Positions 487 through 5,124 of a stretch of DNA of 5,124 nucleotides are shown one piece after another. Position numbers and translations under genes: made by a program. The stretch is taken from IMG/VR virus record IMGVR_UViG_2585427739_000007. The stretch is one strand, 5' to 3'. Under the pieces are notes generated by a model. It did not search any database. It saw nothing but the letters and a program-made list of their open reading frames with translations, and was not told where the DNA came from. Origin of the DNA: a virus (taxonomy: Duplodnaviria > Heunggongvirae > Uroviricota > Caudoviricetes). Position 1 is the first letter of the stretch, and every line of letters begins with the position of its first letter.

Positions 487-1514
<1,028 letters not shown>

Positions 1515-1627
1515 GGATATTTATCAGGATTTATCGGCTTCAAATCCCCGGATATGTTAAATCTTACCTCACCAGTGATGGGCACTGGCGGGAGGAGGAT
1601 GTCAATCTGATAAACACAGAGGCGACT

Positions 1628-1888
1628 ATGGATTACACAAATCTACCTAAACAAACTTTTGCTGATTTAATCGCACTCAGGCAAGCAGTCGTAGCTCTAA
1701 TCAACTTGTTGCCGGAGAAGGAAAAGGAATTAGTTAAAGTGCTTCTTAACAGAACTGCCGCCGATTTTTCATCATATCCACTGACAGATGACCTTGCGGA
1801 CCTTCCTGAATTAATTGCAGCGTCCGCCAATAAGCTTACTGAAGAGATTTACCCTCCTCAAAAATCTTCACAAAATTCCTGCGAGTAA
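1628..1888 (+). CDS. Hypothetical small acidic protein, 86 aa, convergent with the lysis genes
   Basis: ATG at 1628 is preceded by AGAGG (1618-1622) at 5-nt spacing. A strong intrinsic terminator lies 22 nt past the stop. The translation is protein-like (helical N-terminus, acidic C-terminus), whereas the overlapping minus-strand ORF 1633..1830 is Ser/Ala/Arg-rich as expected of an antisense frame. It fills an otherwise unexplained ~320-bp gap between two minus-strand genes. No homolog recognised. Confidence 0.4.
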   Translation: MDYTNLPKQTFADLIALRQAVVALINLLPEKEKELVKVLLNRTAADFSSYPLTDDLADLPELIAASANKLTEEIYPPQKSSQNSCE

Positions 1889-2387
1889 CTTCAATGCAAT
1901 AATCGTAAAACGCCGCAAACTGCTCATCGCGGCGTTTTTTTTCATCTTCAGAAGGAATCAGCACCGACAATTTTTTATTCAGATCAGCGACGCTGCCCTC
2001 CAGTTTTTCAATGGGCGATTCAATATCATCTTTTTCTGACCGCAATGCCGTCGGTGGCGTCTTCAGAGAACCAGTAATTCTTCCCGGTAGCTTTCCTTTG
2101 TAGGTTATCCACACATTCTGCGCCTCTAAAATTATGGGGCGCTTTTCCGGCGACTGCTCATCCCCTTCACATAACCCGGCAGCAACATCCAGGAAGACCT
2201 GTCTGATGCTCCTTCTGGCTGCTGCCTCATAAAACTCCAGCGCGGCACCTTCAACACGGTCCAGCGAGATGTCCAGGTCAAAAATTTCACCGTCAAAGTG
2301 TTTTTTGTCCCGTAAGGCTACAGTTACCGCCACTTTATTCTCAAAATTGCGAACTCCTTTCACAACCAGTTCATAGTCTTGAGTCAT
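1836..2387 (-). CDS. Hypothetical protein, 183 aa, between pinholin and endolysin (same position as ydfR/DUF1327 in Qin-type prophages; family not verified)
   Basis: ATG at 2387 lies 4 nt after the holin TAA stop, with a purine-rich GAGAAGAGAG stretch upstream. The ORF track shows a TTG-initiated extension to 2408, but the ATG is the more plausible start. Soluble, acidic, protein-like translation; no transmembrane segment. Function not recognisable by eye. Confidence 0.6.
   Translation of the reverse strand: MTQDYELVVKGVRNFENKVAVTVALRDKKHFDGEIFDLDISLDRVEGAALEFYEAAARRSIRQVFLDVAAGLCEGDEQSPEKRPIILEAQNVWITYKGKLPGRITGSLKTPPTALRSEKDDIESPIEKLEGSVADLNKKLSVLIPSEDEKKRRDEQFAAFYDYCIEVTRRNFVKIFEEGKSLQ
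1910..1942 (+). terminator. Rho-independent terminator for plus-strand transcription
   Basis: Stem ACGCCGC (1910-1916) pairs with GCGGCGT (1929-1935) around a 12-nt loop, followed by T8 (1935-1942). On the minus strand the same hairpin is followed by only TTTT, so it is a weaker terminator in that direction. It lies inside the 3' coding region of the 183-aa minus-strand gene. Confidence 0.55.
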
Positions 2388-2391
2388 TGGA

Positions 2392-2607
2392 TTACTCTCT
2401 TCTCGCAACCTTACGCCTGTCTTCTTTAATCTTGAAATAAAGGTTTGTCAGATACGTCAGCATGCCAAATACCAGACTACCCAATACACCTATTGCCGCC
2501 CACTGTGAGGGCGTGACTTTATCGAGCAACTGTAAAAACCAGTAGCCAGCACTGCCTGCAGAGGTGCTGTAGGCGATGCCCGTTGTTAACTTATCCATGG
2601 ATTTCAT
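2392..2607 (-). CDS. Class II pinholin of the phage 21 S21 type, 71 aa, with dual-start motif
   Basis: Translation [71 protein letters not shown] closely resembles phage 21 S21 and E. coli EssD/EssQ as I recall them. Two hydrophobic segments are present. Dual starts (ATG at 2607 and 2598, giving MKS-MDK) are typical of antiholin/holin pairs. A strong GGAGGTGAGG Shine-Dalgarno lies just upstream. The ORF-track extension to 2691 is not supported. Confidence 0.85.
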
Positions 2608-2697: not shown

Positions 2698-2728
2698 AAA
2701 AAGAAAAACGCCAGCAATTATTCTGGCG
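2698..2728 (-). terminator. Rho-independent terminator for minus-strand transcription, between the AraC-like gene and the holin
   Basis: On the minus strand, stem CGCCAG/CTGGCG (2709-2714 with 2723-2728) around an 8-nt loop is followed by TTTTTCTTTTT (2698-2708). It sits 70 nt downstream of the AraC-like stop and ~90 nt upstream of the holin start, positionally analogous to lambdoid tR'. Confidence 0.55.
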
Positions 2729-2797
2729 TAGCTAAAAATATCGTATAATCTTACACTTCAAAAAATAACTTTATAAAATGCCATCACATCATATCTT

Positions 2798-3511
2798 CTA
2801 AGAAAATCTTGATAAATATTGGTGCGGAGGCACACCAAAATATCCTCTAAAAACACTTACAAAATATGATGCATTGTCATACCCGCATATTCCCGCCACC
2901 TTGCCGACAGTATGGTTACTGTAGATCAATAATCTTTGCGCCATCATCATTCGTTCTTCAAGAATTAATTTACTAAACGATAATCCTTCGTCTTTTAATT
3001 TTCTTTTTAACAAACTCTCGCTCATATATAATCTTGAAGATATATCACAAAGTCTCCATGACGCTGAGATATCCGAGTGAATAATAGCCTTAACTTTACA
3101 ACCTAAGCTATTAAGACTTCCGAACAAAAAACTTTGCACTATTTTCTCTGAAGATAAGACAGCAAGACATGCAAGTGATATTTGATTTCTAACTACATCC
3201 ACGGTTTTGCTATCACAATTCAAGCATGCAACCAAGTTCCTTAACAATGAAAAATCTTCACATTCTACTATCAAGTATGACGGATAAAACCTTCTTACAG
3301 AAAAAGGTGAGAGTGTGTAGTTTTTAAAGAAATCATTAACTGTTTTCTCCTCAATATCTACGATCATTAGATGATCTGTATTTGACGAAAAAAGATCTTT
3401 TAAATTGTATTCAATGAGGACAGCATTTCCTTTTTTAAACAAAATATCTTCTTTACCAATTCGGACACCAAACGAGTTCAACACCAAAATGATAGAACAT
3501 ATGTATGGCAT
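2798..3511 (-). CDS. AraC/XylS-family transcriptional regulator of the AppY/YdeO-like subfamily, 237 aa, in an AT-rich island
   Basis: C-terminal double helix-turn-helix signature (WRLCDISSRLYMSESLLKRKLKDEGLSFSKLI...GKVAGICGYDNASYFVSVFRGYFGVPPHQY). The N-terminal half resembles my recollection of DLP12 AppY (e.g. ILFKKGNAVLI and LMIVDIEEKTVNDFF segments). ATG at 3511 has an AGGTGG Shine-Dalgarno 5 nt upstream; the GTG at 3520 used by the ORF track is less likely. Base composition is strongly AT-rich relative to the flanks. Confidence 0.8.
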   Translation of the reverse strand: MPYICSIILVLNSFGVRIGKEDILFKKGNAVLIEYNLKDLFSSNTDHLMIVDIEEKTVNDFFKNYTLSPFSVRRFYPSYLIVECEDFSLLRNLVACLNCDSKTVDVVRNQISLACLAVLSSEKIVQSFLFGSLNSLGCKVKAIIHSDISASWRLCDISSRLYMSESLLKRKLKDEGLSFSKLILEERMMMAQRLLIYSNHTVGKVAGICGYDNASYFVSVFRGYFGVPPHQYLSRFS

Positions 3512-3926
3512 ATTATCCACCTGATATCATTGGGGTTACACCAGGTAAGTATAGGTGGAAAATCAATATTCGCCAGTTCAACAATAAGGAAAATCTCATT
3601 GCATCACAACTATAAAACCATGTGTTTAACTCACAAAAAACAAATCATTAAACTAATCTGTTATATTATAATAGCTGCGTGCAATAATAATATTATATGC
3701 TCTTTATATTCACTTGAAATATCTTCATATAAAACAGATTGAATAAAATCTTTTGGGGCTGGTATGTTTACCAACATTAAATTGCATCTCAATGTTTTCT
3801 TTAGCGTGAACAGGATTTTTATAAAAACTGACACTATGAGCATCATAGCGTAGTTTTTACGATTGTAAATATCCTGCATACAGGAACTCATCACTTTCAG
3901 ATGATATCGCATACAGTTAATTCACC
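3512..3926. other. AT-rich non-coding leader upstream of the AraC-like gene, abutting the IS3 insertion point
   Basis: Very AT-rich with many TATAAT-like hexamers on both strands and no convincing ORF. It probably holds the regulator's promoter and is a plausible nucleoid-protein (H-NS-type) binding region. Its right edge is the IS3 junction. Confidence 0.4.
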
Positions 3927-3991
3927 TGATCTTACCCAGCAATAGTGGACACGCGGCTAAGTGAGTAAACTCTCAGTCAGAGGTGACTCAC

Positions 3992-4291
3992 ATGACAAAA
4001 ACAGTATCAACCAGTAAAAAACCCCGTAAACAGCATTCGCCTGAATTTCGCAGTGAAGCCCTGAAGCTTGCTGAACGCATCGGTGTTACTGCCGCAGCCC
4101 GTGAACTCAGCCTGTATGAATCACAACTCTACAACTGGCGCAGTAAACAGCAAAATCAGCAGACGTCTTCTGAACGTGAACTGGAGATGTCTACCGAGAT
4201 TGCACGTCTCAAACGCCAGCTGGCAGAACGGGATGAAGAGCTGGCTATCCTCCAAAAGGCCGCGACATACTTCGCGAAGCGCCTGAAATGA
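3992..4291 (+). CDS. insE: IS3 transposase OrfA (InsE), 99 aa
   Basis: Translation [99 protein letters not shown] matches IS3 InsE; helix-turn-helix plus leucine-zipper-like region. GAGGTG Shine-Dalgarno upstream of the ATG at 3992; the GTG at 3983 in the ORF track is probably not used. Confidence 0.85.
4254..4258 (+). other. Candidate programmed -1 ribosomal frameshift motif (AAAAG) for the IS3 OrfAB fusion
   Basis: AAAAG lies near the 3' end of insE, with insF in the -1 frame. IS3-family transposases are produced by -1 frameshifting and the IS3 site has been reported as an A-AAG-type motif (from memory). No downstream structure was verified. Confidence 0.4.
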
Positions 4292-5124
4292 AGTATGTCT
4301 TTATTGAAAAACATCAGGCTGAGTTCAGCATCAAAGCAATGTGCCGCGTGCTCCGGGTGGCCCGCAGCGGCTGGTATACGTGGTGTCAGCGGCGGACAAG
4401 GATAAGCACGCGTCAGCAGTTCCGCCAACACTGCGACAGCGTTGTCCTCGCGGCTTTTACCCGGTCAAAACAGCGTTACGGTGCCCCACGCCTGACGGAT
4501 GAATTGCGTGCTCAGGGTTACCCCTTTAACGTAAAAACCGTGGCGGCAAGCCTGCGCCGTCAGGGACTGAGGGCAAAGGCCTCCCGGAAGTTCAGCCCGG
4601 TCAGCTACCGCGCACACGGCCTGCCTGTGTCAGAAAATCTGTTGGAGCAGGATTTTTACGCCAGTGGCCCGAACCAGAAGTGGGCAGGAGACATCACGTA
4701 CTTACGTACAGATGAAGGCTGGCTGTATCTGGCAGTGGTCATTGACCTGTGGTCACGTGCCGTTATTGGCTGGTCAATGTCGCCACGCATGACGGCGCAA
4801 CTGGCCTGCGATGCCCTGCAGATGGCGCTGTGGCGGCGTAAGAGGCCCCGGAACGTTATCGTTCACACGGACCGTGGAGGCCAGTACTGTTCAGCAGATT
4901 ATCAGGCGCAACTGAAGCGGCATAATCTGCGTGGAAGTATGAGCGCAAAAGGTTGCTGCTACGATAATGCCTGCGTGGAAAGCTTCTTTCATTCGCTGAA
5001 AGTGGAATGTATCCATGGAGAACACTTTATCAGCCGGGAAATAATGCGGGCAACGGTGTTTAATTATATCGAATGTGATTACAATCGGTGGCGGCGGCAC
5101 AGTTGGTGTGGCGGCCTCAGTCCG
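4288..5124 (+). CDS. insF: IS3 transposase OrfB (InsF, DDE integrase domain), truncated by the window end
   Basis: Translation begins [36 protein letters not shown]... and matches IS3 InsF. The ATG overlaps the insE stop (ATGA) in the -1 frame. It is absent from the ORF track because no stop codon occurs before 5124. Confidence 0.85.

What the first reader, a model, noticed from the sequence alone, without database searches (positions are those of the whole stretch)
1836..2387. Unassigned 183-aa gene translationally coupled to the pinholin and placed between holin and endolysin
Canonical phage 21 cassettes run S-R-Rz/Rz1 with no intervening gene. Here a 183-aa soluble acidic protein starts 4 nt after the holin stop. 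From memory, Qin-type prophages carry ydfR (DUF1327) at this position, but I cannot verify that this ORF belongs to that family, and it seems longer than the ~100-aa K-12 YdfR. Its 3' region also encodes the plus-strand terminator hairpin (KRRDEQFAAF). Its position suggests a lysis-timing or accessory role, or a moron carried in the lysis operon.
Basis: partly seen in the sequence, partly recalled or inferred. Interest (0 to 1): 0.5.

Follow-up and report, generated by a model that had tools for sequence, protein, structure and literature searches.

The report
YdfR-family gene in prophage lysis cassette
The 183-codon gene between the holin and the endolysin is an intact copy of the already catalogued YdfR/DUF1327 phage family, an optional add-on to this lysis cassette whose function is unproven; its K-12 relative binds the host RNA-cutting enzyme RNase E.

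Summary
An open 183-codon frame (1836-2387, minus strand) starts 4 nt after the stop of an S21-type pinholin and lies upstream of a SAR endolysin. The window is a defective Qin-like E. coli prophage.

It is not unassigned. Residues 1-112 match Pfam DUF1327 (E 2.6e-42), the full length matches PHROG 2091, and an identical protein is deposited in phage PhiR63_1.

The family is small, seen only in E. coli/Shigella lambdoid phages, and mosaic. This allele has four parts:
- a conserved three-strand-plus-helix N domain, 61/72 identical to the K-12 YdfR segment reported to bind the RNase E catalytic half;
- a conserved linker;
- a coiled-coil segment;
- a short tail, at the point where longer relatives (268-330 aa) carry an extra roughly 130-aa domain.

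The last 53 nt overlap a convergent 86-codon ORF. RefSeq annotates that ORF and calls ydfR a truncated pseudogene. Substitution patterns instead favour minus-strand coding.

About 23% of phage records with this holin type carry ydfR, so it is accessory and not a core lysis gene.

Most likely it is a cytoplasmic late protein, made by coupling to the holin, that binds RNase E or RNA. That mechanism is inferred. No structural or defence-system match was found. Ordinary, modest interest.

The parts
2392..2607 (-). S21-type class II holin (pinholin, essQ), 71 aa, with dual start MKSM
   Evidence: PF04971 E 3.3e-34. PHROG holin families. RefSeq essQ.
2388..2391 (-). 4-nt spacer (tcca) between the holin stop and the ydfR ATG, the basis of the inferred translational coupling
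   Evidence: Sequence. The spacing is 4 nt in 132 and 3 nt in 13 of 149 related loci.
1836..2387 (-). YdfR-family (DUF1327) gene: 183 aa, acidic and soluble. This is the finding.
   Evidence: PF07041 at 143.4 bits, residues 1-112. phrog_2091 matched 183/183, E 8e-112. 100% identical to XSB43285.1 of phage PhiR63_1. 356 homologues.
2178..2387 (-). Module M1 (aa 1-70): three beta strands plus a long helix. It corresponds to the K-12 YdfR segment reported to bind the RNase E N-terminal half.
   Evidence: AF2 pLDDT 78-93 for residues 1-70. 61/72 identical to K-12 YdfR. dN/dS 0.18-0.25 with pS about 0.7. Binding data from PMC13232886.
2052..2177 (-). Module M2 (aa 71-112): CEGDE..EKRPIILEAQNVWITYKGKLPGRITGSLKTPP, nearly invariant across the family, with a low-confidence predicted structure
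   Evidence: Alignments. pLDDT below 50. Also found attached to a different N terminus in P0162.
1893..2051 (-). Module M3 (aa 113-165): predicted helical, coiled-coil-like segment shared with the 169-, 176-, 211-, 296- and 329-aa forms and with a stand-alone 185-aa form
   Evidence: dN/dS 0.36-0.55 in the minus frame, with in-frame indels of 5, 7 and 28 codons between alleles. Helices 125-143 and 147-182 at pLDDT 50-58.
1839..1892 (-). Module M4 (aa 166-183): short tail IEVTRRNFVKIFEEGKSLQ. The first ~12 residues are homologous to the start of the long C-terminal domain of the 296-330-aa relatives; the last ~6 are specific to this form.
   Evidence: phrog_1085 aligns query 1-178 to profile 1-173 of 296. 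Alignment and dN/dS 0.30 against the long forms.
1907..1942 (+). Perfect 10-bp hairpin plus T8 inside the ydfR coding sequence. It is terminator-like on the plus strand, 18 nt after the stop of the 86-codon ORF. On the minus strand it is preceded by A8 and followed by only UUUU.
   Evidence: Arms are perfect in 70 of 75 short-tail loci, carry one mismatch in most long forms, and the left arm is deleted in the 296-aa form.
1628..1888 (+). Convergent 86-codon ORF overlapping the last 53 nt of ydfR. Whether it is a real gene is uncertain.
   Evidence: phrog_2572 matched 86/86. RefSeq WP_072008041.1. GAGG lies 5 nt before the ATG. Only 18 clusters, of which 17 are from E. coli or unnamed sources at >=77% identity and one is a partial 71% hit from Salmonella. 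12 nt differences against PhiR12_1 give 10 aa changes. ATG is ACG in 6 of 7 loci with the 176-aa allele.
1515..1835 (-). 321-nt stretch of the late-operon strand between the ydfR stop and the endolysin start. It is untranslated unless the 65-codon ORF at 1633-1830 is used.
981..1514 (-). SAR-type endolysin (rrrQ), 177 aa
   Evidence: PF00959 E 2.6e-24. phrog_7 endolysin. RefSeq rrrQ.
487..984 (-). Rz-like i-spanin (rzpQ), with the embedded Rz1 lipoprotein frame at 537-791
   Evidence: PF10721 and phrog_312. phrog_11621 for the embedded frame. K-12 rzoQ lies at the same place.
2708..2729 (-). Terminator-like hairpin plus T run between the AraC-family gene and the holin

Best explanation
The ORF is an intact member of the YdfR/DUF1327 family. 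This family is an optional accessory gene that E. coli lambdoid phages carry between the S21-type pinholin and the SAR endolysin.

Shown:
- Family membership.
- The position.
- The mosaic build: conserved N domain M1, conserved linker M2, helical segment M3 and a short tail.
- Purifying selection in the minus frame through about codon 177.
- This allele ends where longer relatives continue into a further domain of about 130 aa. That part of the slot is occupied here by a convergent 86-codon ORF.

Inferred:
- The protein is made from the Q-dependent late transcript by termination-reinitiation coupling to the holin. The spacer is 4 nt and the Shine-Dalgarno sequence is weak.
- It stays in the cytoplasm.
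- Through M1 it binds the catalytic N-terminal half of host RNase E, and possibly RNA, as reported for K-12 YdfR. It would thereby adjust RNA decay late in infection.
- It does not take a direct part in envelope disruption.

In this genome the cassette sits in a defective prophage, cut off from its Q gene by an IS3, so the gene is probably silent here.
For: Identity:
- PF07041 at 143 bits against a cut-off of 25.
- phrog_2091 matched over the full length.
- Identical protein in phage PhiR63_1.
- 356 homologues, with 183-aa forms down to 78% identity that keep the length.

Coding:
- dN/dS 0.18-0.25 for M1, 0.36-0.55 for M3 and 0.30 for the tail against the long forms.
- Indels between alleles are whole codons.

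Position and coupling:
- A YdfR-type ORF starts 3-4 nt after the holin stop in 145 of 149 loci.

Accessory nature:
- 438 phage records carry the holin type and 100 carry M1.
- In phage 434 the pinholin abuts the endolysin.
- BP-4795 has S-YdfR-R.

Cytoplasmic: no hydrophobic segment, pI 5.18.

RNase E link (PMC13232886):
- K-12 YdfR residues 1-72 gave two-hybrid signals with RNase E constructs.
- Strep-YdfR co-purified Rne 1-598 and DNase-resistant nucleic acid.
- The window protein is 61/72 identical over that segment.

Defective prophage: IS2, IS3, and truncated terminase and tail genes.
Against: - RNase E binding was shown only for the K-12 allele. It rests on two-hybrid and co-purification assays, and overexpression changed few transcripts. 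No effect on RNA decay or on phage growth is known.
- Full-length K-12 YdfR gave a two-hybrid signal only with Rne 1-597.
- The authors could not exclude a contaminant as the source of the RNA.
- The position next to the holin would equally suit a lysis function.
- RefSeq treats this allele as a pseudogene.
Confidence: 0.5

Rival explanations
1. It is a lysis-timing regulator: a soluble protein made in fixed ratio with the pinholin. It would bind the cytoplasmic tail of the holin, or act on the SAR endolysin, to delay or sharpen triggering, in the manner of the soluble antiholin-type proteins of other phages.
For: The gene always sits directly after the holin stop and before the endolysin. It is transcribed with them. 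A K-12 ydfR mutant was picked up in an envelope-integrity screen (cited in PMC13232886).
Against: - No similarity to any lysis-category family in Pfam, PHROGs or NCBIfam.
- No membrane segment.
- About 77% of phage records with the same holin type lack it.
- The S21-type holin already encodes its own antiholin through the dual start (established knowledge of S21).
- The envelope phenotype could be a polar effect of the resistance cassette on the downstream endolysin (my inference).
Confidence: 0.15
2. It is a decaying remnant. A longer YdfR (268-330 aa) lost its C-terminal domain when another DNA module replaced it. The 183-aa frame is open only by chance and has no function of its own, as the RefSeq pseudogene flag implies.
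For: - Long relatives align to residues 1 to about 177 and then continue for about 120 more residues.
- RefSeq annotates only codons 1-112, as 'missing C-terminus'.
- The host prophage is defective.
- Scattered truncated alleles exist: 84, 85, 154 and 173 aa.
Against: - The 183-aa form is one of the commonest alleles: 64 of 149 IMG/VR loci, a cluster of 681 sequences, and 283 complete E. coli genomes carrying the whole slot.
- It occurs in records deposited as complete phage genomes.
- Its length is kept at 78-85% identity with differing N-domain alleles.
- Forms of 103-116 aa with no C-terminal part at all are also common, so the N domain functions, or at least persists, without the long domain.
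Confidence: 0.2
3. The real gene in 1628-1888 is the plus-strand 86-codon ORF, a moron with its own ribosome site and terminator. The C-terminal third of the 183-aa frame would then be an incidental read-through of its antisense strand.
For: - GAGG lies 5 nt before the ATG.
- The hairpin plus T8 begins 18 nt after the stop.
- phrog_2572 and a RefSeq protein exist.
- The ORF is intact in about 60 of 66 loci with the 183-aa allele.
- Other phages carry unrelated convergent ORFs at the same place.
Against: - Only 53 nt overlap, so codons 113-165 of ydfR are not affected.
- The ORF is nearly confined to E. coli (18 clusters; 17 from E. coli or unnamed sources at >=77% identity, one partial Salmonella hit at 71%).
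- 12 nt differences from the PhiR12_1 copy cause 10 amino-acid changes.
- The start codon is ACG in 6 of 7 loci with the widespread 176-aa allele, and one locus has an early stop.
- No sigma-70-like promoter was found upstream.
- The hairpin sequence also occurs in long forms that have no adjacent antisense ORF.
Confidence: 0.1

Closest known systems
K-12 YdfR (b1555, P76160; Qin prophage; Pfam DUF1327/PF07041)
   Same: Same family, and the same position between essQ and rrrQ. Residues 1-72 are 61/72 identical. That segment is the one reported to bind the RNase E N-terminal half (PMC13232886).
   Different: K-12 YdfR is 103 aa. It diverges after about residue 70, lacks M2, M3 and the tail, and its stop overlaps the rrrQ start. 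Here 321 nt and a convergent ORF separate the gene from the endolysin.
Long YdfR-family proteins of lambdoid phages (phrog_1085; 296-330 aa, e.g. P0049)
   Same: They align with residues 1 to about 177 at roughly 80% identity, sit in the same slot and have the same spacing from the holin.
   Different: They carry a further C-terminal domain of about 130 aa with no known relatives. They fill the slot up to the endolysin. The 296-aa form lacks the hairpin because of a 5-codon deletion.
Short YdfR-family proteins (phrog_406; 112-116 aa, e.g. BP-4795 ORF47)
   Same: M1 plus M2 are about 90% identical, in the same slot.
   Different: They end right after KTPP. They have no helical segment and no antisense ORF, and only 50-63 nt separate them from the endolysin.
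Phage proteins that target host RNase E (T7 gp0.7 kinase, phiKZ Dip, T4 Srd; from my own knowledge)
   Same: Possible functional analogy: a phage-encoded protein that binds RNase E.
Accessory lysis regulators of other SAR-endolysin phages (P1 LydB; Mu lysis accessory proteins; titles seen, otherwise from my own knowledge)
   Same: Extra genes inside lysis cassettes that use SAR endolysins.
   Different: No homology detected. Several of those are membrane proteins, whereas this one has no hydrophobic segment.

Membership tests
YdfR family / DUF1327 (PF07041) | Match to the Pfam model above the gathering score | tested here: met
   143.4 bits against a cut-off of 25, E 2.6e-42, residues 1-112 on profile 1-92 of 93.
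YdfR family / DUF1327 (PF07041) | Position directly after a class II (S21-type) holin and before the lysozyme of a lambdoid (pro)phage | tested here: met
   Window anatomy. The same holds in 149 related loci and in K-12.
YdfR family / DUF1327 (PF07041) | N-terminal three-strand-plus-helix domain | tested here: met
   AF2 model with pLDDT 78-93 for residues 1-70: strands 5-14, 18-27 and 34-43, helix 50-73. This is a prediction only.
YdfR family / DUF1327 (PF07041) | Binding of the RNase E N-terminal half, reported for the K-12 member | not testable with these tools
   Only sequence conservation is available: 61/72 identity in the binding segment (PMC13232886).
PHROG 2091 (183-aa YdfR subtype) | Full-length match to the profile | tested here: met
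   Query 1-183 on profile 1-183 of 183, E 8.1e-112.
Antiholin / lysis regulator | Homology to a known lysis-regulating family, or a membrane or holin-like segment | tested here: not met
   No lysis-category hit in Pfam, PHROGs or NCBIfam. Maximum hydropathy 0.81, so no TM segment.
Antiholin / lysis regulator | Effect on lysis timing | not testable with these tools
   This needs deletion or co-expression experiments.
Moron (independently transcribed prophage cargo gene) | Own promoter and terminator flanking the gene | tested here: not met
   Only 4 nt separate it from the holin stop, and no promoter-like site lies between them. The convergent 86-codon ORF fits the moron pattern better but lacks a recognisable promoter.
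Known anti-phage defence proteins (PADLOC) | Match to a PADLOC model | tested here: not met
   0 families at E <= 0.1.

The most novel reading that the evidence does not exclude
YdfR-family proteins are phage modulators of host RNase E, made in fixed ratio with the pinholin, so that control of RNA decay is tied to the lysis clock. The holin-endolysin gap of S21-type cassettes would then be a recombination hot spot where the RNase-E-binding N domain is combined with interchangeable C-terminal modules and convergent small genes. On this reading the 183-aa allele is a functional variant and not a pseudogene.
Probability: 0.2. Interest if true: 0.6.

Novelty: already known. Interest (0 to 1): 0.3.

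Why it matters
YdfR-type genes are present in about 79% of complete E. coli genomes (4277 of 5426) and in many Stx1 and Stx2c phages. No function is established for them.

If the RNase E link reported for K-12 YdfR holds for the phage alleles, this would be a widespread temperate-phage factor acting on host RNA decay, sitting inside the lysis cassette.

There is also a practical point. RefSeq flags this common 183-aa allele as a pseudogene and annotates the convergent ORF instead. The substitution patterns here favour the opposite reading, which affects pangenome and prophage annotation.

Tried and rejected
- The afdb50 library was unavailable.
- A profile search of PDB sequences returned only a chance-level PARP1 BRCT hit (E 0.09).
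- An exhaustive HMMER search of 1.84 billion representatives found only 76 relatives. Nearly all are at least 48% identical or are fragments, so there are no remote homologues to borrow function from.
- NCBIfam, PADLOC and Rfam gave nothing for the gene or the region.
- The 'DUF1823' label attached to the antisense ORF in PhiR12 phages is sub-threshold (E 0.023 against a cut-off of 25 bits).
- Counting polymorphic sites by codon position in 44 close haplotypes was underpowered for regions 1628-2051, with only 12-14 variable sites each.
- The antisense ORF of phage Chlobot at the same site is unrelated to the 86-codon ORF, so it gives no support for deep conservation.
- The literature search on essQ/rrrQ was swamped by unrelated acronyms.

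Full report
**Observation**

- The 71-codon holin (2392-2607) matches PF04971, 'Bacteriophage P21 holin S' (E 3.3e-34), and has the dual start MKSM.
- The downstream 177-codon gene (981-1514) is a phage lysozyme with an N-terminal hydrophobic SAR-like segment.
- It is followed by Rz (487-984) with Rz1 embedded.
- Between holin and endolysin, a frame opens at ATG 2387, four bases after the holin stop, and runs 183 codons to TAA 1838-1836.
- Its product is acidic (pI 5.18) and has no hydrophobic segment.
- The hairpin encoded by KRRDEQFAAF has perfect 10-nt arms at 1907-1916 and 1929-1938 and a T8 run on the plus strand. The fold is -16.6 kcal/mol, z -2.5.

**Origin of the window**

The window is 100% identical to the chromosome of E. 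coli NT1F25 and 99.3-99.9% identical to other listed strains, including the B strain REL606.

It is part of a defective Qin-like prophage. IS2 (1 to about 376) and IS3 (about 3925-5124) flank the cassette. The IS3 and other cargo lie between the cassette and the Q antiterminator gene, and the terminase and tail genes are truncated. Late expression in this genome is therefore doubtful.

**Identity**

- Residues 1-112 match Pfam DUF1327 (PF07041) at 143 bits against a cut-off of 25.
- The whole protein matches PHROG 2091 end to end.
- The identical protein is deposited in phage PhiR63_1, and a 96%-identical DNA segment is in phage 2H10.

K-12 YdfR occupies the same slot and is 103 aa.

The family is small and narrow:
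- 356 clusters in the 5.8-billion-protein set, all named sources being Escherichia or Shigella.
- 76 representatives among 1.84 billion, nearly all at least 48% identical or fragments.

**Anatomy: a mosaic**

Alignments of the length classes (103, 112-116, 169, 176, 183, 211, 268, 296 and 329-330 aa) show interchangeable modules.
- M1 (aa 1-70) exists in two deeply diverged alleles. dN/dS is 0.18-0.25 with synonymous sites near saturation.
- M2 (aa 71-112) is nearly invariant. In one protein it is attached to a different N terminus.
- M3 (aa 113-165) is a predicted helical segment found in the 169-, 176-, 183-, 211-, 296- and 329-aa forms. It is also in a stand-alone 185-aa protein that lacks DUF1327 but fills the same slot.
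- After FAAFYDYC the long forms continue into a domain of about 130 aa with no known relatives.
- This allele continues for about 12 residues that are still homologous to the start of that domain (dN/dS 0.30). It then ends after about 6 unrelated residues.

The 183-aa form therefore looks like a shortened derivative of a long form.

Several facts argue against a dead remnant:
- Differences between alleles in M3 are whole-codon indels (5, 7 and 28 codons), and dN/dS is 0.36-0.55, so the minus frame is coding there.
- The 183-aa form was 64 of 149 analysed IMG/VR loci, though about half of those loci were retrieved with the adjacent 86-codon ORF as the query, so the share is not an unbiased frequency.
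- It includes a cluster of 681 sequences.
- It keeps its length when combined with either M1 allele.

**The overlapping plus-strand ORF and the annotation conflict**

An 86-codon ORF (1628-1888, plus strand) converges on ydfR and overlaps its last 53 nt. RefSeq annotates this ORF. It reduces ydfR to a pseudogene fragment (2052-2387, 'missing C-terminus') here and in another genome. The PhiR63_1 record does the opposite.

In favour of the 86-codon ORF:
- a GAGG 5 nt before the ATG;
- the hairpin plus T8 18 nt after its stop;
- a PHROG family (2572);
- intactness in most loci that carry the 183-aa allele.

Against it:
- It is nearly confined to E. coli: 18 clusters, 17 of them from E. coli or unnamed sources at >=77% identity, plus one partial Salmonella hit at 71%.
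- Its 12 nt differences from the PhiR12_1 copy cause 10 amino-acid changes.
- Its ATG is ACG in 6 of 7 loci with the widespread 176-aa ydfR allele, and one locus has an early stop.
- No sigma-70-like promoter is seen upstream.
- Its last ~10 codons lie on the antisense strand of sequence that is homologous to ydfR coding sequence in the long forms.

The hairpin pattern is suggestive but not conclusive. The arms are perfect in 70 of 75 short-tail loci, carry one mismatch in most long forms, and the left arm is deleted in the 296-aa form. One 330-aa form also has the perfect hairpin.

Whatever the status of the plus ORF, it touches only codons 166-183 of ydfR.

**Distribution**

- In every analysable related locus, a YdfR-type ORF starts 3-4 nt (145 of 149 loci) or 9-10 nt after the stop of an S21-type holin.
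- Only 100 of 438 phage records with this holin type contain M1.
- In phage 434 the pinholin stop abuts the SAR endolysin start.
- Stx1 phage BP-4795 has S, YdfR (114 aa), R.

The gene is thus an optional insert tied to this holin type, not a core lysis component. 4277 of 5426 complete E. coli genomes have a ydfR-like match, and 283 have the whole 877-bp slot of this type.

**Structure**

- The full-length AF2 model was poor (pLDDT 52).
- A model of residues 1-116 from a 30-sequence alignment was confident for residues 1-75: three antiparallel strands and a 24-residue helix, pLDDT 78-93. It was disordered for M2.
- No significant structural neighbour was found in PDB or BFVD.

**Function**

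The only experimental data are for K-12 YdfR (PMC13232886).
- The first 72 codons were recovered three times in a two-hybrid screen.
- Full-length YdfR gave signals with Rne 1-597.
- Strep-YdfR co-purified Rne 1-598 and DNase-resistant nucleic acid.
- Overexpression changed few transcripts.
- An earlier screen had listed ydfR among envelope-integrity mutants.

The window protein is 61/72 identical over the binding segment.

My best reading is a cytoplasmic late protein, translated by coupling to the holin, that binds RNase E and perhaps RNA through M1. The helical C-terminal part has an unknown role, perhaps oligomerisation. Family identity I hold at about 0.97. The RNase E mechanism for this allele I hold at about 0.35, and it is inference by homology.

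A lysis-timing role rests on position alone. It is weakened by the absence of any membrane segment or lysis-family similarity, and by the gene's dispensability in most phages with the same holin. The envelope phenotype of the K-12 mutant might be a polar effect on the downstream SAR endolysin. That is my inference and is untested.

**Verdict**

- The family guess is confirmed.
- The functional speculation is untested and not favoured by the little evidence there is.
- The gene, this exact allele included, is already in public catalogues.

What is mildly new here is the explicit modular map of the family, the conflict between the RefSeq pseudogene call and the selection signal, and the recurrent convergent small ORFs in the slot.

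Noticed in passing
window 1628-1888 (+): A convergent 86-codon ORF (phrog_2572, RefSeq WP_072008041.1) overlaps the last 53 nt of ydfR. It has a good ribosome site and a terminator-like hairpin. Against it: no visible promoter, a mostly non-synonymous difference pattern, near-restriction to E. coli, and ACG in place of ATG in loci with the 176-aa ydfR allele.
   Followed up: yes
window 2052-2387 versus 1836-2387 (-); L001 10052-10387; L167 1505-1840: RefSeq/PGAP annotates this common ydfR allele as a pseudogene fragment ('missing C-terminus'), although the frame is open for 183 codons. The GenBank phage record PhiR63_1 annotates the full ORF.
   Followed up: yes
L005 2047-2319 (phage Chlobot); L125 and L120 slots; window 1628-1888: Three unrelated small ORF families (phrog_2572, phrog_2411, phrog_1853) occupy the same place in different phages, convergent to the late operon between ydfR and the endolysin. 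The site may be a recurrent insertion point for antisense cargo.
   Followed up: partly
L159 and 12 similar IMG/VR loci (holin-endolysin slot of 597-603 bp): A stand-alone 185-aa protein fills the same slot. It consists of the M3 helical segment plus the long C-terminal domain and has no DUF1327 domain. The slot, not the DUF1327 domain, is what stays conserved.
   Followed up: partly
window 1633-1830 (-): A 65-codon ORF lies on the late-operon strand just after the ydfR stop, antisense to the 86-codon ORF. It starts with TTG here but with ATG in most related loci. Its composition (rich in Ser, Ala and Arg) looks like an antisense artefact.
   Followed up: partly
window 2798-3520 (-), terminator-like hairpin 2708-2729 (-): An AraC-family regulator gene (237-240 aa; HTH_18 E 3e-16; best NCBIfam resemblance YdeO/GadX, far below cut-off) sits just upstream of the holin and is followed by an intrinsic-terminator-like hairpin. 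It is probably prophage cargo between Q and the lysis genes.
   Followed up: no
window 1 to ~376 and ~3925-5124: IS2 (left end of the window) and IS3 (orfA 3992-4291, orfB onward) bracket the cassette. Most related genomes match only from 377 on, so the IS2 insertion downstream of Rz is specific to a few strains. The IS3 lies between the Q gene and the lysis genes.
   Followed up: partly
window 537-791 (-): The embedded Rz1 lipoprotein frame (lipobox LTSC, counterpart of K-12 rzoQ) is present but is not annotated in the RefSeq record of NT1F25.
   Followed up: no
proteins P0093, P0098, P0110: Database proteins of 173-187 aa carry both PF04971 (holin) and PF07041 domains. These are apparent holin-YdfR fusions, probably from loss or misreading of the holin stop, given the 4-nt spacing.
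   Followed up: no
L169 3000-3569 (phage BP-4795): In BP-4795 an anti-repressor (ant) gene is inserted between R and Rz. This is another sign that these lysis cassettes tolerate inserted cargo.
   Followed up: no
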